Below are positions 20,841 through 52,604 of a DNA stretch of 59,921 nt, one piece after another (the stretch's first letter is position 1; each line of letters starts with the position of its first letter). The notes beneath the pieces were generated by a model that saw only the letters and a program-made list of their open reading frames with translations, was not told the origin of the DNA and ran no database searches. Made by a program: the position numbers and the translations under genes. Location of the stretch: positions 1-59,921 of the IMG/VR virus record IMGVR_UViG_3300037560_000117. One strand, written 5' to 3'. Source of the DNA: a virus. Its lineage: Duplodnaviria > Caudoviricetes.

Positions 20841-21100
20841 TCGGCGTGCTCACCGTCGTAACGTGACCAGATCACACTATAGCATAGGCACCACAGGGAG
20901 ATTTGGTGTGTGAGGAAGCTACGCGGGTCACACTGGAAGGTGAAATCCAAGTCCCGTGCGTCTGGACCTTCAATCCCGACCGCAATTTCGATGCTCCCGA
21001 TACGTGTGTGCCACTTCTTTTCGTACCAGTGCGGGCCAAGAAAACCCACGACGAGGTTTGCCACAATCAACAGCGCAAGAATGTATAGTAGTGTAATCAT
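20777..21100 (-). CDS. Membrane-anchored hypothetical protein
   Basis: N-terminal hydrophobic helix. Confidence 0.55.
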   Translation of the reverse strand: MITLLYILALLIVANLVVGFLGPHWYEKKWHTRIGSIEIAVGIEGPDARDLDFTFQCDPRSFLTHQISLWCLCYSVIWSRYDGEHADCSHENVTCFACGAKINSGDV

Positions 21101-21483
21101 TAGTCGAACTCCCTGTCTATTACGATTGGGTTCCCGTCAATTTCTCGTGGGCCATTTTTCCCTGCGAAGTTTTCGAGTGCGTCCTTTTCCACCTTACGTT
21201 CAATGATACCGATGATGTCAGATTCCCGCATAACGAGGACCTGTGCGCCGTCGATGGTCAACTTGGACCCGACGAACTTAGACCATAGCACGTGATCGCC
21301 TACCTGTAGTGAGGTGGGGATTAGCACGCCATTGTCGTAGCGTCCTGTGCCCGCGCTGATAACAACGCCGGATGTTGGGATTTTGTTGTTGTCTGATGTC
21401 GTTATGATGATGCCCTGTGCGGTTCTTTCTTCAACCGAGTCGGGTACAATAACGATGCGATCTAATAGCGGTATGAAAGCCAT
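21100..21483 (-). CDS. groES: Co-chaperonin GroES
   Basis: MAFIPLLDRIVI, TAQGIII, GVVISAGTG, VGDHVL and MRESDIIGII; start 21483 after AAGGAG (the longer ORF overlaps tRNA-Trp). Confidence 0.95.
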   Translation of the reverse strand: MAFIPLLDRIVIVPDSVEERTAQGIIITTSDNNKIPTSGVVISAGTGRYDNGVLIPTSLQVGDHVLWSKFVGSKLTIDGAQVLVMRESDIIGIIERKVEKDALENFAGKNGPREIDGNPIVIDREFD

Positions 21484-21584
21484 GTGTGGCTCCTTTTTAG
21501 AAGTTAATAATAGACGATGGGTGATCTGATCTACTAGTAAATTTTCACCAGCTAGACCATCTATTACATATTGTGTGTGTGATT

Positions 21585-21659
21585 TGGCAGACCCAGTAGG
21601 AATCGAACCTACCCAGTCGATTTTGGAGACCAACTCGCCGCCTTGGAACATGCGGGCCT
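21585..21659 (-). tRNA. trnW: tRNA-Trp (CCA)
   Basis: Acceptor AGGCCCG/TGGGTCT, anticodon loop CTCCAAA, T-arm GTAGG-TTCGATT-CCTAC, encoded CCA. Confidence 0.85.
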
Positions 21660-21667
21660 GTGTGATT

Positions 21668-21793
21668 TGATTTGCTCGGTAGGATTCGAACCTACAGCTT
21701 GGCCTTACGGTTGTCAATTGTCCTGCCGGTATATCACGTGCAGGGTGCTCTGCCTTGCAGGGGAGTGTTCCCGTGTCTTCGAGCTACGAACTC
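21668..21793 (-). ncRNA. tRNA-like RNA with expanded D-loop, 13-nt anticodon loop and long variable region
   Basis: TA-GCTC...GAGC D-stem, CCTGC/GCAGG stem, perfect T-arm GTAGG-TTCGAAT-CCTAC, partial acceptor stem. Confidence 0.65.
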
Positions 21794-21801
21794 ATGTAAT
21801 T

Positions 21802-21892
21802 TGTGGTTGTAGTCGGAATCAAACCGACGTCTTTATGTGTGTGTGATTGTGCACGTCACACACATACTGTTCTGCCACTGAACTATACATCC
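21802..21892 (-). ncRNA. tRNA-like RNA with anticodon arm replaced by a long hairpin
   Basis: Acceptor GGATGTA/TACAACC, D-arm TAGTTCAGTGGCAGAAC, hairpin TATGTGTGTGA...TCACACACACATA, T-arm GTCGG-TTTGATT-CCGAC. Confidence 0.7.
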
Positions 21893-21898
21893 GTAATT

Positions 21899-21985
21899 TG
21901 GTTACGCGACAGGGCAGACCGGATTTGAACCGGCGACCTTGCGAACTCGCCGCTCTACCAACTGAGCTACTGGCCCTGTCGTCGC
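21899..21985 (-). ncRNA. tRNA-like RNA lacking an anticodon loop, with extended acceptor stem and 3' ACCA
   Basis: Canonical D-arm TAGCTCAGTTGGTAGAGC, mini-arm GCGAGTTCGC, AGGTC, T-arm GCCGG-TTCAAAT-CCGGT, CGACAGGG/CCCTGTCG extension. Confidence 0.75.
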
Positions 21986-21990
21986 ATTTT

Positions 21991-22151
21991 GTGAACACTC
22001 ACTACGTAATGCGGGGAACCTAATATCCCGCGCCAATCAAGGTCGTTACCATGGTAACTGGCTCGATCCCGTCACATACTCGGATTCGTCAATCGACTCA
22101 GTGTGATGGCTCTTTAAGGCTACGTGAGCTAATTACGCAGTGAATGTTCAT
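21991..22151 (-). ncRNA. ~160-nt giant cloverleaf RNA
   Basis: 19-bp closing stem whose two mismatches are G-U pairs only on the minus strand; TA-GCTC...GAGC D-like arm; three further hairpins. Confidence 0.65.
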
Positions 22152-22160
22152 GTGTGATTT

Positions 22161-22230
22161 TAGGTCCCATCATGATAACTTTACCTGAACGGTCGCGAGC
22201 CGCCCTCGAAGTTATCAATGATGGGGTCCG
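22161..22230 (-). ncRNA. ~70-nt rod-shaped structured RNA
   Basis: CCCATCAT/ATGATGGG and GATAACTT/AAGTTATC stems, internal loop, GGCGG/CCGTT apical stem. Confidence 0.5.
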
Positions 22231-22234
22231 ATTT

Positions 22235-22309
22235 TGGGCGGAGCAACCAGATTTGAACTGGTGACCTCCCGCTCCATAGCGGGTGCGCTACCAACTGTGC
22301 CATACTCCG
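22235..22309 (-). tRNA. tRNA-Pro(TGG)-like with a 6-nt anticodon loop (atypical or pseudo)
   Basis: 5' CGGAGTA/TGCTCCG acceptor, CCCGC-TATGGA-GCGGG anticodon arm, ACCAG-TTCAAAT-CTGGT T-arm, C73 + CCA. Confidence 0.7.
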
Positions 22310-22314
22310 CAATT

Positions 22315-22389
22315 TGGTGTACCCACAAGGATTCGAACCCTCGATCTCACTGGGTATAAGCCAATGCGCTTTCCTTAAGCTATAAGCAC
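22315..22389 (-). tRNA. tRNA-Ile (TAT), atypical
   Basis: CATTGG-CTTATAC-CCAGTG anticodon arm, GGTTCGAATCC T-loop, A73-CCA; G-U-rich acceptor stem. Confidence 0.7.
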
Positions 22390-22400
22390 GTGTGATTTAG

Positions 22401-22484
22401 TTTGCGGGTGATCGCGTACAGGTACCGGATGTGCGCACATCTAATGGTACCGGAGGACGGCCCTATTGGGACACAGCCCGCAAA
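22401..22484 (-). ncRNA. ~85-nt multibranch structured RNA
   Basis: TTTGCGGG/CCCGCAAA closing stem; GGTACC/GGTACC and GATGTG/CACATC internal stems; same spacer motif as the rest of the array. Confidence 0.45.
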
Positions 22485-22983
22485 TTTTGTGTGAAGCGTT
22501 AGGCCCGCAATGCGGGGGTCGCGCCTCCTGCTCTTATCGAAAATTTCCCAAAGTCGAGAGATGCCCTCAGGCAAATCAATCGCATTGCTCTAGCTCTGTG
22601 TGACATCACACGCCGCACACTACTTAGTGAGTGACGCACGCATGATACCGTGTGTGTGACCACGGCTACTGTGTGAGTGTGTGAACAAGTCGATGGCGCA
22701 CTGGCGGCTCGCACACTAACTGCCGTGTGTGCGATGCGGGGCTACACCATCAGCTTGTTTATTGGCACGTGTGCTGTGTGAGTGGGAGACACCGACGTTG
22801 ATCAGAGCGTACGTGTCAACGGCGTGTGTCTGCTACCATCACACGTATTTTAGAGTGTGTGGGCAGTCCGTATCTCACGGTCGTGGATATCACATGGACC
22901 GTGCGGGACACTGCCGCACACTTACTCAAGCGTGTCACACTACTTTCACACGCCATGAACGTGTTACATTTCGTGTGAGGTGC

Positions 22984-23379
22984 TTATTTTGGGATATGTG
23001 CAATGCGTCGTATCACCTCGTTTATAACGTGTGATTGTATGACACTGCTTCCGCGTGCTTCACGTATCAGTTCACCGGAGATTGTCACACGATCAAGATC
23101 GCTACACTGAGTACAGGGGAAACAATGTGACGTCGCATCAGGCTTCAGCACACACTCACTATCTTCTACTTCGGTGAATCGCACGTACCGACGCCAGATG
23201 CGCTTGAATAGTCGGTCGTACGGATACCACGTAATCGCACGGAAGGTAGGATATACCAAGCCAAGTGCGAGAGCTGATTCACGGTCACCGGTAATGGCCC
23301 ACGTGTAAAGGAAGAGGATCACACAGCCGAGCAACTCCCAGAGTACGCCCTTGGCGAGTGTGTTATATTTGATTTTCAT
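22984..23379 (-). CDS. DUF2061-like small membrane protein
   Basis: TLAKGVLWELLG...AITGD...ALALG...WYPYDRLF pattern. Confidence 0.6.
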   Translation of the reverse strand: MKIKYNTLAKGVLWELLGCVILFLYTWAITGDRESALALGLVYPTFRAITWYPYDRLFKRIWRRYVRFTEVEDSECVLKPDATSHCFPCTQCSDLDRVTISGELIREARGSSVIQSHVINEVIRRIAHIPK

Positions 23380-23641
23380 GTGTGTGTGCCTCTATTAGAT
23401 TATGCTGTACCCCTGTTAGAATGCGCTGTACGGCGACGCGGAACTCTCGGCCCTTGAGCCGTGTGAGTTGCTTCGCCTGCTGTGTGATGTTACACTTGCT
23501 GAGCCAGTCCGCATTCGAAAGCAGCGATGCGTATACTGAGTTGGGGTGCCACGTCGCAATGTCAGTGACGGTCACTTTAGCGTGCGGCTGTTTAATGCCA
23601 CGGTAAGCGGCTATATCGGAGGGGATGTGTGTGACGGTCAT
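23363..23641 (-). CDS. Hypothetical protein
   Basis: AGGAAG RBS; overlaps the next gene. Confidence 0.55.
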   Translation of the reverse strand: MTVTHIPSDIAAYRGIKQPHAKVTVTDIATWHPNSVYASLLSNADWLSKCNITQQAKQLTRLKGREFRVAVQRILTGVQHNLIEAHTHENQI

Positions 23642-23711
23642 ATAAACTTCCTGTGTGTGCGTGTGTCACTCACTATATAGTGTGTGAGTGGCGTGTGTGT
23701 GACGAAGCCCG

Positions 23712-23943
23712 GCAGCAAACGGGAGCGATAGATGGCTGCTGGTCGGCCCTTGGCCGGTTTACGCGGAGCGTTCCGGATTAGTTGATGCGAGTGTGTGACG
23801 GCTTAATATGCATTGCGTCTCTCCTGTGTATGTGACTCGCATCGGTTTGCGGTTGCGTGTGTGCGTCGCTCACTACTTAGTGTGTGTGTGATGTCACACG
23901 CGGCGGAGGATGCGACGCAGCGAACGGGAGTAATAGATGGCTG
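23712..23943. repeat. Two copies of a 27-bp motif (23712-23738 and 23917-23943) in a non-coding region
   Basis: GCAGC(A/G)AACGGGAG(CG/TA)ATAGATGGCTG. Confidence 0.8.
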
Positions 23944-24170
23944 TTTACGCCCTGCGTTTCCTCCGTGCGTCGGTCGCCGTCCAGCCCCTATAAGTTTAGC
24001 CGTATGATCGACCCGCCCGTACCGAGAGGAACGACTAACCTGACTATGCAACGCATTGCACATACACCCCCCTAGAGGGCCTCCAATGCGACACACCCCG
24101 TCCACAGTGCGATGCCTTGGAATGCCTGCCCAAGCGTGCAGTATACCTCGTATCCCTTAGGGATATAGAG

Positions 24171-24454
24171 TCCTCACGGTCCTGACGGTACTGACGTGTT
24201 CCGGAGTGTGTATGTAACCGTACGCTGAACGCAGGGCGGTACCTCTCCGTGCCTCGAACCCTCATTGGACCCGTTAGACGGTACGTTCCGACGTGTAATC
24301 GAACGCCATACGTACCACGGTAGCCATGTGTCCCGGAAAGTGCCCGCCTAACGCTCCGATATGTATCCGGCGCACGGGGAGGGGTCACCGTTACATTTGC
24401 GTACTCCGAATGGATGTCCACAGAGCCGTTAGGACCGTCAGGACCGTCCGGACC
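24171..24454. repeat. Inverted clusters of a 9-bp iteron-like repeat (ACGGTCCTG) at 24171-24196 and 24426-24454
   Basis: tcctcacggtcctgacggtactgacg versus ccgttaggaccgtcaggaccgtccggacc; same motif at 52435-52529. Confidence 0.75.
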
Positions 24455-24836
24455 TTGAGCTAATACCGGACTTATTAGGTGTGAACTTCACCGTGCCATC
24501 GGCGATGCCCTTTTTTAGAGCGTTACTACACCTTGGCATTGCTAGTCGCCTACTGGGCTTAACTTCATCCTTCATGGCCCTGACTCCCCGATACAACTCG
24601 CCTAGATCGGCACCGGCCCTGAGACGAAACACCGTGCCACCTACTCTAATAACCGCACGCTCCTTGGACCGAATTGTAAAAGCCGTACGTGTAAACGCCG
24701 TGCAATTATCCTTGAGCCAGTACACAAACTCCGACACTCTAGTTATACCAGTGGGAGCGTTGTCATCGAGCGGTATCTTGTCTAACTCGATAAACATCAG
24801 TTGCTTGAATTTTTTATTGGTCATTTTCGCCTCCAC
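24438..24836 (-). CDS. Hypothetical basic protein
   Basis: ORF coupled to the upstream paralogue cluster. Confidence 0.55.
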   Translation of the reverse strand: MEAKMTNKKFKQLMFIELDKIPLDDNAPTGITRVSEFVYWLKDNCTAFTRTAFTIRSKERAVIRVGGTVFRLRAGADLGELYRGVRAMKDEVKPSRRLAMPRCSNALKKGIADGTVKFTPNKSGISSRSGRS

Positions 24837-27637: not shown

Positions 27638-28210
27638 TCATAATGACTCCTTAATCCACGTGCGCCAGTCACGCAACCAGAGTGTGACAGTGCTTTTGGC
27701 AACGCTGTGTTTTTCGGCTACCTGTTCCATGGTTAATCCGTACAACAGATCGGCGATTAAGTCGTACGCGGTAACTTCGAGTAGTTCATCACACACGTAC
27801 ATCTCGGCTAACTCTAACGCCTGCTCGATGCGTGTGACGTTGGGGTTGTCCGTTATCTCTCCCCACTTCCGGAACGCGATCTTGTCGAGTTCTGGGTGGT
27901 CACCGGAGAAGCCGTCGCCGGTGATGATGATCGACTGCTCCATAGTTGGTGTGCGCCCCGATTTGCGCATGTGGTCAATTGCCATATCGCGGGCGATTTT
28001 AGCACAGAAGCCTCTGGGCGTCCGTACGGTCGATAGGTCGCGGTCCGATTCTAATAGCCGCAGGTAAATGTCCTGCCGTGCGTCTTCACAGTCATCGGGC
28101 TTCACACCATAGAGGCGTAAGCATCGCAACAGGTAGTCGCCGTATCCCGCATGTAGATTATGCACATTGAGCATCTTCTGCTCATTCACGTGCGATTTTT
28201 TAGTTGTCAT
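27638..28210 (-). CDS. ECF-type sigma-70 family RNA polymerase sigma factor
   Basis: Region 2 DCEDARQDIYLRL...KIARDMAIDHMRK; region 4 HTH GLTMEQVAEKHSVAKSTV. Confidence 0.85.
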   Translation of the reverse strand: MTTKKSHVNEQKMLNVHNLHAGYGDYLLRCLRLYGVKPDDCEDARQDIYLRLLESDRDLSTVRTPRGFCAKIARDMAIDHMRKSGRTPTMEQSIIITGDGFSGDHPELDKIAFRKWGEITDNPNVTRIEQALELAEMYVCDELLEVTAYDLIADLLYGLTMEQVAEKHSVAKSTVTLWLRDWRTWIKESL

Positions 28211-33759: not shown

Positions 33760-33999
33760 TTACCATCTTTTTATTGTATAAGTGGGCAGTTGTATTTTAG
33801 GATAGTTGGCAACAAATAGCCATCCCATGCCGAGACAGTTAGAACACCGCGCTACAGGTGCGTCTATATTTCGACTGAGAACGTGTGGGAGCTTACCGGT
33901 ATTAGAAATTGTGCGAATCACGAGCTTGCGTTCTTCCACACTGAGTTCAATACCAAAACTCACACACCGCTTGCATATTTGGGTGCCGTATCTGATCAT
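33760..33999 (-). CDS. Small zinc-finger protein
   Basis: CKRC...CSNCLGMG. Confidence 0.5.
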   Translation of the reverse strand: MIRYGTQICKRCVSFGIELSVEERKLVIRTISNTGKLPHVLSRNIDAPVARCSNCLGMGWLFVANYPKIQLPTYTIKRW

Positions 34000-35057
34000 T
34001 GTTGTCGTCTTATTACACTAAGTTTTGGACCGCCTGTGCCAACGAATGTGACAGGCAGGCCAGTTAACTTTTCAAGACTCGAAACAAAACCACGGCTTTT
34101 TTCGGATAGCCAATCATAGAGGTCTTGCCCTTCGTCGTCGGGGTTAACATAATCAATAAAAGTAAGTGCAATCTCAGTCGGCCCATGCAACAACACACAC
34201 TGTCTAGCCAATTCGTCATCCCACTTGCCGATGCGGCGTGTTTTTAAGGTAACAGTCGTTATCTCGGTAGTTTCACGTCCGAGACGTTTCGACATTTCCT
34301 CCCACGTCATTTCGTCCTTTAGCGGGCCGCTAGTGCCTGCCACACGAATCGGGAATGTGCGGAATACAGCGATAATGCGACCAATGTCTTTTAACGGAAT
34401 ACCGACATCAGCGCATAACTGAGCGGGGCCGGGGTCTGTGCTCGTGCAATGCGGCCATGGACCGTGGATCAATGACAGCCCTTGACCCTGTGCGCCTTCA
34501 AGTAATACCTTGTACCCGTGTGCGGTGCGTAACGCCTCTATGTAGGCGGGTGTATCTTCACGCTCAAATTGCGCAAACCACACATCCTCTTCGGCAAGGT
34601 CCCTGTATAGGCGGAATCGTTCAGGATCACGTGAAATCCGGGCTTCACGTGCGGGGCCGACACCCTCACCTGTCGAACCAATTCTGTCGTGCATTTCTCC
34701 GTGAATACCGCCCTCCATTTCGTGAAAGACAAGATCAAGAATACCGCACAACGGGTCAATCACCAGTCTGGTGTAAATGGACGGGTCAACCTCGGCAATG
34801 GCCTCAACTTCACGACGCAACAGTACAGGATCGATTAAACCACCACGACCGATAATTAACACGGCCTCAGGATTAGCCCATCCGCACGGTATTGTCTGCA
34901 TTTTCCACAGCCTATCGTACGCTATAAACGAATGACCCGCATTAGGTGCACCAACACGGATGTGGACGTCGTAGTCATCTGCAAGGTGTCCGGCTATTAC
35001 GCCTTTGCCCTCTGACCCGAACTGGCCACCGAATATAATATCAACTTTGGGTTTCAT
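33996..35057 (-). CDS. purZ: PurA homologue of PurZ/PurZ0 type (N6-succino-2-amino-deoxyadenylate synthase)
   Basis: GGQFGSEGKG (Ser in place of the PurA catalytic Asp), NAGH, IGSTGEGVG, LEGAQG, TTVTLKTRRIG, LTFIDY. Confidence 0.85.
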   Translation of the reverse strand: MKPKVDIIFGGQFGSEGKGVIAGHLADDYDVHIRVGAPNAGHSFIAYDRLWKMQTIPCGWANPEAVLIIGRGGLIDPVLLRREVEAIAEVDPSIYTRLVIDPLCGILDLVFHEMEGGIHGEMHDRIGSTGEGVGPAREARISRDPERFRLYRDLAEEDVWFAQFEREDTPAYIEALRTAHGYKVLLEGAQGQGLSLIHGPWPHCTSTDPGPAQLCADVGIPLKDIGRIIAVFRTFPIRVAGTSGPLKDEMTWEEMSKRLGRETTEITTVTLKTRRIGKWDDELARQCVLLHGPTEIALTFIDYVNPDDEGQDLYDWLSEKSRGFVSSLEKLTGLPVTFVGTGGPKLSVIRRQQ

Positions 35058-36110: not shown

Positions 36111-36755
36111 TCAGCTTCCTTTCGGTGTTTCGTTTGGTCTGTCCCACCGGATAGGTGTGAACATCTTCTGTATTTGCTTCGGTTTAATTGTTTGTCGGTC
36201 GTCGTTGCCCTGTCCTGTGGTCACGTACTCCATGAGAAATAGGCAGTTGGCGATCACATGTGCGAGGTGGCTGACACCAGATTCGTCGTCGTCATTTTCA
36301 CCAAGGCTCCACTTGAGGAAGTGTCGCCAGATAGAGCCGATACAGCGCGAATAACTGAACCCTTCCTCCCAGTTGCGATCACCGTAAGTGAACGCTCCGA
36401 AAGTGAAGACCTGTGCGACGGCGGTTAACGGTCCGAGAGGCAAAAGATCGAATCGCACTTTCTGTTTTGGTGATCGTGCGGCGATGCCATCTTGCTTATT
36501 GGAAGTTGGACCACCGCCATCGACGGGTGTGCTCTTCCAGTTCTCAATTTCGTAGAACTCAGGTCGCACGGACCCTGACACCATATCAGCCAACATGCCG
36601 ATTTCTTCGACAAGCTCCTTATGTGCGAGAGCGTAGAGGCCCTGCTGTGTGTCAGCTTCTACCTCGTACTCGTACTCTTTGCGGTTCGCCATGAAGAATC
36701 GTACTTTAGCTTTCATCCGTACTCTCCCTCTCCTTTTCAGTTTGTCGTTTCGCAC
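36111..36755 (-). CDS. dATP/dGTP diphosphohydrolase-like (DUF5664) protein
   Basis: KVRFDLLP, VFTFGA..YGDRNWE.G, RH...W..GE..D.ESG..HLAH. Confidence 0.85.
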   Translation of the reverse strand: MRNDKLKRRGRVRMKAKVRFFMANRKEYEYEVEADTQQGLYALAHKELVEEIGMLADMVSGSVRPEFYEIENWKSTPVDGGGPTSNKQDGIAARSPKQKVRFDLLPLGPLTAVAQVFTFGAFTYGDRNWEEGFSYSRCIGSIWRHFLKWSLGENDDDESGVSHLAHVIANCLFLMEYVTTGQGNDDRQTIKPKQIQKMFTPIRWDRPNETPKGS

Positions 36756-52415: not shown

Positions 52416-52604
52416 TATCTTAAGATATACAGACTCCTGACGGTCCTAACGGTCCTGACGGCAACGCGTTGCGTAATCTTGTATGTCGGATTGCATACTC
52501 AGTCGGCACGTTAGGACCGTCAGGACCGTGCGGAGTCTGTACGGGGTCCCGACAGTTTATCGCACTGCGTTGCGTAATTTTGTATGTCAGATTGCATACT
52601 GAGT
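52416..52604. repeat. Repeat complex: inverted 9-bp iterons (52435-52461 and 52509-52529) plus a ~38-bp direct repeat (52466-52503 and 52567-52604)
   Basis: GCGTTGCGTAAT(C/T)TTGTATGTC(G/A)GATTGCATACT(C/G)AGT twice, 101 bp apart. Confidence 0.85.

What the first reader, a model, noticed from the sequence alone, without database searches (positions are those of the whole stretch)
21991..22151. 160-nt giant cloverleaf
Seen: a 19-bp closing stem, then TA-GCTC-loop-GAGC (D-like), a ~40-nt arm (CCATCACA...TGTGACGG), a branched variable arm (GCCAGTT...GATTGGC containing GTTACCATGGTAAC) and a GCGGG...CCCGC arm abutting the 3' strand. This is tRNA topology with every arm enlarged and no TTC loop. I do not recognise it as a known family.
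Basis: partly seen in the sequence, partly recalled or inferred. Interest (0 to 1): 0.7.

Follow-up and report, generated by a model that had tools for sequence, protein, structure and literature searches.

The report
tRNA-shaped phage RNA, two known copies
A roughly 160-base stretch inside a phage's cluster of tRNA genes folds into an oversized tRNA-like shape that a distant relative of the phage also keeps at the same spot, so it is probably a new small non-coding RNA whose job is still unknown.

Summary
On the minus (gene) strand, 21992-22150 is closed by an uninterrupted 19-bp helix (17 Watson-Crick, 2 G.U). It is the longest stem in the window, and 0 of 25 shuffles produced any stem of 17 bp or more.

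The inner arms exist but fold no better than shuffles (z -0.92). Alone, they are not evidence.

The decisive result is a homologue, L015:88-225, in a metagenome contig of a related phage (TerL 67% identical). It lies 31 nt upstream of the same groES-like gene, on the same strand. Of the 19 closing pairs, 6 changed on both sides and stayed paired. The D-like arm with its 13-nt loop and the last arm are conserved, the two middle arms vary, and a 5-bp helix may join the two conserved loops.

No Rfam family, tRNA model or ARAGORN setting matches it. A complete relative has an empty slot there, so the element is accessory.

Best reading: a new, non-decoding, tRNA-shaped small RNA made with the neighbouring tRNAs. 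Its function is unknown. Only two copies are known, there is no expression data, and a DNA-level inverted-repeat element is not excluded.

The parts
22132..22150 (-). 5' strand of the 19-bp closing helix
   Evidence: Pairs with 21992-22010. Against L015: 10 pairs invariant, 6 changed on both sides and kept, 1 changed on one side and kept, 2 broken in L015.
22109..22131 (-). 2-nt connector (UA), then arm 1: GCUC, a 13-nt loop, GAGC (D-arm-like)
   Evidence: AGCUCA-N6-CUUAAAGAG is identical in both copies at all 15 specified bases. The stem is 4 bp in both, with one G-C to G.U change.
22069..22108 (-). Arm 2 (anticodon-arm position), 40 nt here
   Evidence: CAUCACA/UGUGACG stem with one A.C, plus an inner hairpin. 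In L015 it is replaced by a 5-bp stem with a 6-nt loop. Variable, so no covariation test was possible.
22032..22068 (-). Arm 3 (variable-arm position), containing GUUACCAUGGUAAC
Evidence: L015 has a 7-bp hairpin with a 7-nt loop at this position.
22011..22031 (-). Arm 4: GCGGG, an 11-nt loop, CCCGC, abutting the 3' strand (T-arm position; no GTTCRANY loop)
   Evidence: GCGG/CCGC is invariant in both copies. In L015 the fifth pair would be G.U, read by eye from the sequence; one search scores that pair as a gap in alignment A8.
22117..22121 (-). Arm-1 loop bases AGCCU, proposed to pair with the arm-4 loop bases AGGUU at 22017-22021
   Evidence: RNAalifold proposed this pairing on the MAFFT alignment. 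All 5 pairs are kept in both copies: 1 changed on both sides, 2 on one side. Only suggestive: 41 of 300 column shuffles give some shared helix of at least 5 bp.
21992..22010 (-). 3' strand of the closing helix
   Evidence: As for 22132-22150.
22152..22160 (-). Spacer motif AAAUCACAC just 5' of the element
   Evidence: 4 of the 5 exact copies in the window lie in this RNA array on the minus strand. They abut tRNA-Ile (22390-22398), this element, and tRNA-like K (21660-21668), and one follows K (21577-21585).

Best explanation
The element is the gene for a small, structured, non-coding RNA of about 160 nt with a tRNA-like layout. It belongs to a so-far unnamed family with two known members. It sits in an accessory slot between a DUF2061 gene and the groES-like first gene of the structural module, in a clade of uncultivated marine-sediment tailed phages.

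Shown:
- A terminal helix of about 19 bp is kept by compensatory changes.
- Sequence blocks are conserved at both ends of the interior: arm 1 with its 13-nt loop, and arm 4.
- The connector lengths are tRNA-like: 2 nt, then 0-1 nt, then 0 nt.
- The middle arms vary.
- The element has the same strand and the same spacer motif as the flanking tRNA genes.

Inferred:
- It is transcribed on the minus strand together with the tRNAs and tRNA-like genes. No sigma-70-type promoter or intrinsic terminator is predicted on that strand within the array.
- Host nucleases cut it out at the A-rich spacers and at the base of the helix (RNase E, P or III type).
- It folds into an L-shape. The closing helix stacks on arm 4 (about 24 bp), arm 1 stacks on arm 2, and a 5-bp loop-loop helix replaces the D-loop/T-loop contacts of tRNA.

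It has no 7-nt anticodon loop, no T-loop consensus and no free 3' CCA end, so it cannot decode. The most likely role is a tRNA mimic that binds (as decoy, sponge or adaptor) a host or phage factor that recognises tRNA shape or a long RNA duplex. That role is a hypothesis, not a result.
For: - The helix is real and not chance.
- The single-sequence covariance model R1 found L015:88-225 at 33.2 bits, E = 2.7e-6, in 242 kb. The 15-base motif AGCUCA-N6-CUUAAAGAG is identical in both copies. The position (31 nt before the groES start) and the strand also agree.
- Pair counts: 96.9% of 65 cells are paired. 7 pairs changed on both sides, against 0-1 when the 3' partners are slid by 1-3 columns.
- The two phages are far apart: TerL 67% and GroES 45% amino-acid identity. 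The flanks are not alignable, yet the element is 68% identical, the same as TerL DNA.
- The conserved bases are read in different frames by the only short ORFs present, so it is not coding.
- It lies among four Rfam-level tRNA hits and two weaker ones on the same strand. The spacer motif abuts it as it abuts tRNA-Ile.
- No minus-strand terminator or sigma-70 promoter is predicted in 21000-24600.
- The slot is empty in a complete relative: 26 nt separate the DUF2061 gene from groES in L027. L002 holds a different tRNA-like gene there. The element is therefore accessory and not needed in cis for groES.
- A second assembly of the same run covers 20900-23500 without any difference.
Against: - Only two copies are known, so no statistical covariation test such as R-scape is possible. 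With two rows the shuffle control is weak: 11 of 500 shuffles reach 7 double changes.
- The interior of both copies folds no better than shuffles (z = -0.92; z = +0.92).
- The loop-loop helix is only suggestive (41 of 300 column shuffles).
- The imperfect pairs of the closing helix do not pick a strand. The window has 2 G.U on the sense strand. L015 has 2 A.C on the sense strand, which would be G.U on the antisense. The plus strand of the window scores 33 bits with R1.
- The tRNA model and ARAGORN do not recognise either copy.
- There is no evidence of expression.
- Four relatives (G001-G004) lack it, and in L002 (G005) the slot holds a different tRNA-like gene.
Confidence: 0.5

Rival explanations
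1. A cis-acting RNA module of the late (structural) transcript. The long duplex would be an RNase III-type processing site or a 5' stabiliser that defines or protects the groES-terminase-capsid mRNA. It would not be a trans-acting RNA.
For: In L015 it ends 31 nt before the groES start on the same strand. It lies at the head of the structural module, followed by GroES, TerL, portal and capsid. The array holds other long-helix hairpins: F at 22165-22230, about 16 bp, z = -3.8, and one at 21500-21570, z = -2.9. No terminator separates it from groES.
Against: In the window about 500 nt and four tRNA-like genes lie between it and groES. A complete relative expresses groES from a 26-nt spacer without it. 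Conserved loop sequences and tRNA-like connector lengths are not needed for a plain nuclease site.
Confidence: 0.2
2. A miniature inverted-repeat (MITE-like) DNA element, or another DNA-level site. The 19-bp arms would be terminal inverted repeats kept alike because one protein binds both ends. Any RNA fold would be incidental.
For: The ends are conserved and the middle varies in length and sequence. Presence in the slot among relatives is patchy. All four imperfect pairs are transition-type with no strand preference. The interior folds no better than chance.
Against: There is one copy in the window. None of the 43 IMG/VR loci that carry the core motif is a copy: the best reaches 17.2 bits, and the three with 11-bp stems are coding. 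There is no consistent target duplication: CA/CA in the window and AA/UU in L015, read. Site and orientation relative to transcription are the same in two phages with 67% TerL identity. The two conserved inner blocks are not inverted copies of each other. No transposase family was among the 25 Pfam families listed of 31.
Confidence: 0.12
3. A Y RNA of the Deinococcus Yrn1 type. The terminal helix would bind a host Ro60 (Rsr) protein, and the tRNA-like module would tether a nuclease.
For: The layout matches the Yrn1 description in the passages read of PMC4201824. There the terminal helix takes the acceptor position, a 5-bp 'anticodon' stem carries a 6-nt loop as in L015 arm 2, and likely Y RNAs are reported in more than 250 bacterial and phage species.
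Against: No TROVE/Ro60 gene is in the phage. The motif GNCGAAN0-1G is absent from the closing helix of both copies: the only GNCGAA is in the variable arm 2 of the window copy, and there is none in L015:88-225. No Rfam family matches. There is no canonical T-loop.
Confidence: 0.06
4. A decaying tRNA pseudogene or a chance fold with no function.
For: Neighbouring tRNA-like genes also look aberrant. The interior is not thermodynamically special.
Against: The element is conserved at the level of TerL DNA across phages whose intergenic flanks are unalignable. There are six compensatory pairs. The helix is absent from all 25 shuffles.
Confidence: 0.04

Closest known systems
Bacterial Y RNAs, especially Deinococcus radiodurans Yrn1 (PMC4201824; abstract and passages read)
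   Same: A non-coding RNA of about 100-160 nt. A helix made by the 5' and 3' ends closes a tRNA-like module. The helix takes the acceptor position. The anticodon-like stem is 5 bp with a 6-nt loop (L015 copy). Some are phage-encoded and lie near tRNA genes.
   Different: No Ro60 gene is nearby. There is no Ro-binding motif in the helix and no canonical T stem-loop. The helix is uninterrupted and longer. An extra variable arm is present. No Rfam match.
Class II (long variable arm) tRNA, Rfam RF00005
   Same: The order of helices matches. So do the 2-nt connector, the 4-bp GCUC/GAGC stem with A at the positions of A14 and A21, and a 5-bp last arm stacked directly on the 3' strand. It lies in a tRNA gene array on the same strand.
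   Different: The 19-bp helix replaces the 7-bp acceptor stem, with no free discriminator or CCA. The D-like loop is 13 nt without GG. The last loop is 9-11 nt without the T-loop consensus. There is no 7-nt anticodon loop. The tRNA model gives no hit at E up to 10, and ARAGORN gives none.
Small stable RNAs in the phage T4 tRNA cluster (species 1 and 2, rnaC/rnaD). Recalled from memory; no paper was read and no sequence compared.
   Same: Non-tRNA stable RNAs of roughly 120-140 nt, encoded among phage tRNA genes, presumably processed with them, and of unknown function.
   Different: The phage lineage is unrelated.
Bacterial MITEs that are transcribed into long hairpins (Correia, ERIC). Recalled from memory.
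   Same: 100-160 bp, with terminal inverted repeats of about 20 bp, inserted in transcribed intergenic DNA. The RNA hairpin can be a nuclease target.
   Different: Single copy, no consistent target duplication, a conserved asymmetric interior, and the same slot and orientation in two diverged phages.
phi29 packaging RNA (pRNA). Recalled from memory.
   Same: A 5'/3' terminal helix plus two loops complementary to each other. It is phage-encoded and lies near the packaging genes.
   Different: This phage has a classical large terminase. pRNA has a three-way junction, and its loops pair between molecules. No similarity was found by Rfam.

Membership tests
tRNA (RF00005) | Scores with the tRNA covariance model or is called by ARAGORN | tested here: not met
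   There is no tRNA hit on 21992-22150 at E up to 10 or on L015:1-300. ARAGORN makes no call with introns allowed and thresholds lowered to 80%. It makes no call on L015 with the default tool.
tRNA (RF00005) | 7-bp acceptor stem with a free discriminator and 3' CCA end | tested here: not met
   The helix runs for 19 uninterrupted pairs. The trailer is CAAAAU in the window and UUAUAA in L015.
tRNA (RF00005) | 5-bp anticodon stem with a 7-nt loop | tested here: not met
   In the window the stem is 7-8 bp around a 25-nt insert. In L015 it is 5 bp with a 6-nt loop.
tRNA (RF00005) | T-loop consensus and the GG of the D-loop | tested here: not met
   The loops read AUAUUAGGUUC and AUCAGGCGG for arm 4, and ACGUAGCCUUAAA and AAUACGUCUUAAA for arm 1.
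tRNA (RF00005) | Cloverleaf order with a 2-nt connector, a 4-bp D stem, and a T stem abutting the acceptor 3' strand | tested here: met
   Both copies have these features.
Y RNA (YrlA / Yrn1) | Helix formed by the 5' and 3' ends that closes a tRNA-like module | tested here: met
   The feature is as described in PMC4201824 (passages).
Y RNA (YrlA / Yrn1) | Ro60-binding motif (GNCGAAN0-1G) in the terminal helix | tested here: not met
   The only GNCGAA in the window copy is in arm 2 (window 22085-22090). There is none in L015:88-225.
Y RNA (YrlA / Yrn1) | Ro60 (TROVE) gene adjacent | tested here: not met
   PF05731 gives 0 matches in the 59.9-kb phage record, while the control rings in D. radiodurans. 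A host-encoded Ro60 could not be tested.
Retron msr-msd RNA | Reverse transcriptase gene next to an RNA closed by inverted repeats | tested here: not met
   PF00078 gives 0 matches in the record.
MITE | Terminal inverted repeats | tested here: met
   17 of 19 positions are complementary at the DNA level in each copy.
MITE | Target-site duplication and many copies | tested here: inconclusive
   The flanks are CA/CA in the window and AA/UU in L015. There is one copy in the window and 0 of 43 motif-bearing IMG/VR loci. Prokaryote genomes could not be scanned.
CIRCE operator of groES operons | 9-bp inverted repeat TTAGCACTC-N9-GAGTGCTAA (consensus recalled) | tested here: not met
   0 matches in the window with up to 3 mismatches.
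Any Rfam 15 family (ribozymes, riboswitches, 6S, tmRNA and others) | Covariance-model match | tested here: not met
   The only listed hit on the element is SNORA22 at 12.3 bits, E = 7.2, which is noise.

The most novel reading that the evidence does not exclude
This is the founding member of a new class of phage tRNA mimics. The RNA would be L-shaped, with an acceptor/T-type coaxial helix about twice the tRNA length (19 + 5 bp) and an elbow held by a Watson-Crick loop-loop helix instead of the D/T-loop contacts. It would belong to a cassette-like array of tRNA-shaped RNAs that lack a normal anticodon loop: a 6-nt loop, a mini-hairpin, and a 10-bp arm. The phage would deploy these late in infection as decoys or adaptors against host factors that recognise tRNA shape, for example tRNA-targeting defence nucleases or 3'-end-modifying toxins.
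Probability: 0.2. Interest if true: 0.8.

Novelty: new variant of a known kind. Interest (0 to 1): 0.55.

Why it matters
Phage tRNA clusters are usually read as codon-usage helpers or as spares against anticodon nucleases. Here most members of a 1.5-kb array cannot decode, and one of them is an oversized tRNA-shaped RNA that selection has kept in two phages as diverged as 67% TerL identity.

If it is expressed, it adds a new structured RNA family to the short list of tRNA mimics (Y RNAs, tmRNA, viral tRNA-like structures). It would also be a concrete object for asking what tRNA-shaped decoys do in phage-host conflict. Its conserved helix length and possible base-paired elbow make it an attractive target for structure work. 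If it instead proves to be a mobile inverted-repeat element, it would be an unusual case of such an element maintained in a compact phage genome.

Tried and rejected
**Known RNA families.** None matched with gathering or permissive thresholds.

**tRNA, intron-bearing tRNA or tmRNA.** ARAGORN gave no credible call on the element. One low-threshold 'tRNA-Tyr with a 64-nt intron' overlaps its 3' part and the next tRNA-like gene, and I treat it as spurious.

**Paralogy.** Local alignment scores against the nine other array elements all had z at or below 1.6.

**Coding.** The 17-aa and 16-aa ORFs read the conserved block in different frames.

**CIRCE operator.** 0 matches.

**Retron and Y RNA partners.** No RT and no TROVE gene.

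**Promoters and terminators.** The sigma-70 and intrinsic-terminator scan found nothing on the minus strand of the array.

**Searches for more copies:**
- blastn 'distant' against 50,697 phage records gave no match for the window region or for the L015 copy.
- Five exact or IUPAC pattern scans of IMG/VR. Only the 15-base core gave hits: 43 loci, none of them a copy.
- TerL-based and GroES-based locus searches in IMG/VR and JGI metagenomes were followed by searches with models R1 and R2. Only L015 matched.
- The whole records of five relatives gave 0 of 5.

**Not possible or no result:**
- Scans of prokaryote genome contigs failed three times with 'no answer', and the cap was then reported as used.
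- L017's record is not held. Its contig is cut inside groES, so its slot could not be seen.

**Sequencing runs.** One DNA run was listed, which may be the source. No RNA holder was listed. Laying that run's contigs only confirmed the assembly.

**Literature.** Searches turned up no description of this element. They cover only the held open-access library, and supplements are closed.

Full report
**Setting.** The window is a complete-looking (CheckV 100%) 59,921-bp virus record from IMG/VR. All long ORFs lie on the minus strand. PHROG and Pfam matches identify a tailed phage: large terminase, portal, capsid-protease fusion, family-A DNA polymerase, primase-helicase and GroES. It has no close cultured relative: the best TerL identity by tblastn against 50,697 phage records is below 24%. 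The only run that holds the DNA is labelled a marine sediment metagenome.

The finding lies on the minus strand in a roughly 1.5-kb stretch without credible ORFs. This stretch sits between a DUF2061 gene (22984-23379) and the groES-like gene (21100-21483), which opens the structural module.

**The observation.**
- Read on the minus strand, 22150-22132 pairs with 22010-21992 over 19 uninterrupted pairs, 17 Watson-Crick and 2 G.U.
- This is the longest uninterrupted stem (span up to 260 nt) on either strand of the window.
- None of 25 dinucleotide shuffles of the window contains any stem of at least 17 bp with at most 2 G.U.
- The whole element folds at -61 kcal/mol, z = -4.7.
However, the 122-nt interior alone is unremarkable (z = -0.92; 39 of 200 shuffles fold as well).
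- The plus strand folds almost as well (z = -4.2).
- From this sequence alone, only the closing helix is established.

**What it is not.**
- Rfam 15 gives four tRNA hits around the element and nothing on it, even at E up to 10 on a 176-nt slice.
- ARAGORN does not call it with introns allowed and thresholds lowered.
- It has no detectable similarity to the nine other elements of the array.
- It has one copy in the genome and no blastn match in cultured phages.
- The phage has no reverse transcriptase and no Ro60/TROVE gene. There is no CIRCE operator.

**The second copy.** I collected relatives through TerL and searched them with R1, a covariance model built from the single sequence and its MFE structure.

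One hit appeared in 242 kb: L015:88-225, at 33.2 bits and E = 2.7e-6, covering the full model. The window's own plus strand scores the same 33 bits because the helix is palindromic, so the score alone is not proof. The following points make homology secure:
- L015 is a 4.4-kb metagenome contig whose TerL is 67% identical to the window's.
- Its element ends 31 nt before the start of its groES-like gene (the ORF starts at 257), on the same strand.
- The 15 specified bases of AGCUCA-N6-CUUAAAGAG are identical in both copies.
- GroES itself is only 45% identical in protein, and the flanks are not alignable. The element is 68% identical, the same as TerL DNA.

**Comparative structure**.
- *Closing helix, 19 pairs.* 10 are invariant, 6 changed on both sides and stayed paired, 1 changed on one side and stayed paired, and 2 are broken in L015 (A.C and C.A).
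- *Arm 1.* GCUC/GAGY, 4 bp with a 13-nt loop in both copies. One pair changes from G-C to G.U.
- *Arm 4.* GCGG/CCGC is invariant, and the arm abuts the 3' strand without a linker in both copies.
- *Overall counts.* 96.9% of 65 cells are paired. 7 pairs changed on both sides, against 0-1 when the 3' partners are slid by 1-3 columns. With only two rows the shuffle control is weak (11 of 500).
- *Loop-loop helix.* RNAalifold, run on the structure-blind MAFFT alignment, proposed a 5-bp helix between the arm-1 loop (AGCCU / CGUCU) and the arm-4 loop (AGGUU / AGGCG). All 5 pairs are kept, 1 through a double change and 2 through single changes. It is the only shared interior helix of at least 5 bp in that alignment. 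However, 41 of 300 column shuffles give one, and 23 of 300 give one with at least 3 varying pairs. I treat it as suggestive only.
- *Arms 2 and 3.* They differ in length and sequence: 40 and about 35 nt here, against a 5-bp stem with a 6-nt loop and a 7-bp stem with a 7-nt loop in L015.
- *Interior stability.* The interior of L015 is also not thermodynamically special (z = +0.92).

The picture is a long terminal helix, conserved blocks at both ends of the interior with tRNA-like connector lengths (2 nt, 0-1 nt, 0 nt), and a variable middle.

**Family size and distribution.**
- A two-sequence model, R2, finds no further member in 254 kb of loci or in the whole records of five relatives.
- None of the 43 IMG/VR loci that carry the 15-base core is a member. 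The best reaches 17.2 bits, and the three with an 11-bp flanking stem are coding.
- In the complete relative G001 the DUF2061 gene is followed after 26 nt by groES.
- In L002 the slot holds one odd tRNA-like gene and a hairpin.
- In the window the slot holds at least ten elements.
- The slot is therefore a hotspot for accessory RNA genes, and the element is not required in cis for groES, replication or packaging.

**Array context.**
- The exact motif AAAUCACAC occurs five times in the window. Four copies lie in the array on the minus strand. They abut the 5' ends of tRNA-Ile, this element and tRNA-like K, and one follows K.
- A-rich AAAU-type sequences follow the elements.
- No sigma-70 promoter or intrinsic terminator is predicted on the minus strand of the array.
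- These points fit co-transcription and nucleolytic separation, as in tRNA operons. That is an inference.
- A second assembly of the same run spans 20900-23500 with no difference, so the array is not an assembly artefact of one program. It is the same data, though.

**Mechanism.** I commit to a stable, non-decoding, tRNA-shaped small RNA (confidence 0.5). In this model:
- The closing helix stacks on arm 4, and arm 1 stacks on arm 2.
- The two conserved loops meet at the elbow.
- Arms 2 and 3 are tolerant peripheral helices.
- The RNA cannot be charged or decode as it stands.
- The likely role is to bind a factor that recognises tRNA shape or a long duplex.

The closest described architecture is the Deinococcus Y RNA Yrn1. 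In Yrn1 the terminal helix takes the acceptor position and the anticodon-like stem has a 6-nt loop (passages of PMC4201824). But the Ro60-binding motif and a Ro60 gene are absent here, so I do not file the element as a Y RNA.

**Rivals.**
- *A cis-acting processing or stability module of the late transcript (0.2).*
- *A MITE-like DNA element (0.12).* Terminal inverted repeats would co-vary in the same way as an RNA helix. The four imperfect pairs are all transition-type and show no strand preference, which keeps this rival alive. The single copy, the lack of a consistent target duplication, the conserved asymmetric interior, and the fixed site and orientation speak against it.
- *A Y RNA (0.06).*
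- *A pseudogene or chance fold (0.04).*

The test that would best separate these readings, copy number in prokaryote genomes, could not be run.

**Verdict.** The interpretation as an unrecognised, tRNA-topology structured RNA is partly supported by a second, diverged, syntenic copy with compensatory changes. Function is unknown, there is no expression evidence, and only two copies are known. I rate it a new variant of a known kind (tRNA mimics and stable RNAs of phage tRNA clusters), of moderate interest.

Supplementary files of the papers cited were not seen.

Noticed in passing
window 21585-22389 (minus strand): Most tRNA-like genes of the array lack a normal anticodon loop. E (22235-22309) has a 6-nt loop, and ARAGORN reports 'tRNA-???'. 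H (21910-21976) has a 3-bp mini-hairpin in place of the anticodon arm, and its acceptor stem is extended to about 12 bp. I (21804-21892) has an arm of about 10 bp made of GUGUGUGA/UCACACAC. E and H are paralogues. Only tRNA-Ile(UAU) (22315-22389) and perhaps K (21585-21659, Trp-CCA at lowered threshold) look able to decode.
   Followed up: partly
L002:7281-7351: A relative (TerL 69% identical) carries, in the same slot upstream of groES, a single tRNA-like gene that ARAGORN also reports with a two-base 'anticodon' (6-nt loop). A 7-bp-closed hairpin follows it.
   Followed up: partly
window 22165-22230 and 22402-22481 (minus strand): There are two further non-tRNA structured elements in the array. 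F is a hairpin closed by about 16 bp with one bulge (z = -3.8, 0 of 200 shuffles). C is an element closed by 8 bp (z = -1.5). Neither has an Rfam match.
   Followed up: partly
window 33996-35057 and 36111-36755 (minus strand): An adenylosuccinate-synthetase-like ORF (PurZ-like) and a dATP/dGTP diphosphohydrolase-like ORF (PF18909, MazZ-like) lie beside the family-A DNA polymerase. This gene set suggests a 2-aminoadenine (Z-base) genome. The link between these families and Z-genomes is recalled, not tested.
   Followed up: partly
window 27638-28210 (minus strand): An ORF with a sigma-70 region 2 match (6.9e-8) suggests a phage-encoded sigma factor. That would fit the absence of sigma-70 consensus promoters around the array.
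   Followed up: no
window 22600-24430: This region upstream of the array, interrupted by the DUF2061 gene (22984-23379) and a 92-aa ORF (23363-23641), holds 7 copies of a GTGTGTGTGAC-like motif. It also holds two 75-85-nt direct repeats (23654-23738 and 23854-23943). These may be promoters, operators or further RNAs.
   Followed up: no
window 52435-52525, 24170-24196 and 24427-24453: A perfect 17-bp inverted repeat (TCCTGACGGTCCTAACG) lies at 52435-52525. Related GTCCTGACGG repeats form a 27-nt inverted pair 230 nt apart at about 24.2-24.45 kb. These may be protein-binding sites.
   Followed up: no
L027:1459-1486, L002:7425-7455, L015:226-256: The short groES 5' leader keeps a related AAUCACA/ACUCACA motif in three relatives. 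In the window the same motif is multiplied as the spacer of the RNA array. This hints that cassettes were added at, or together with, this motif.
   Followed up: partly
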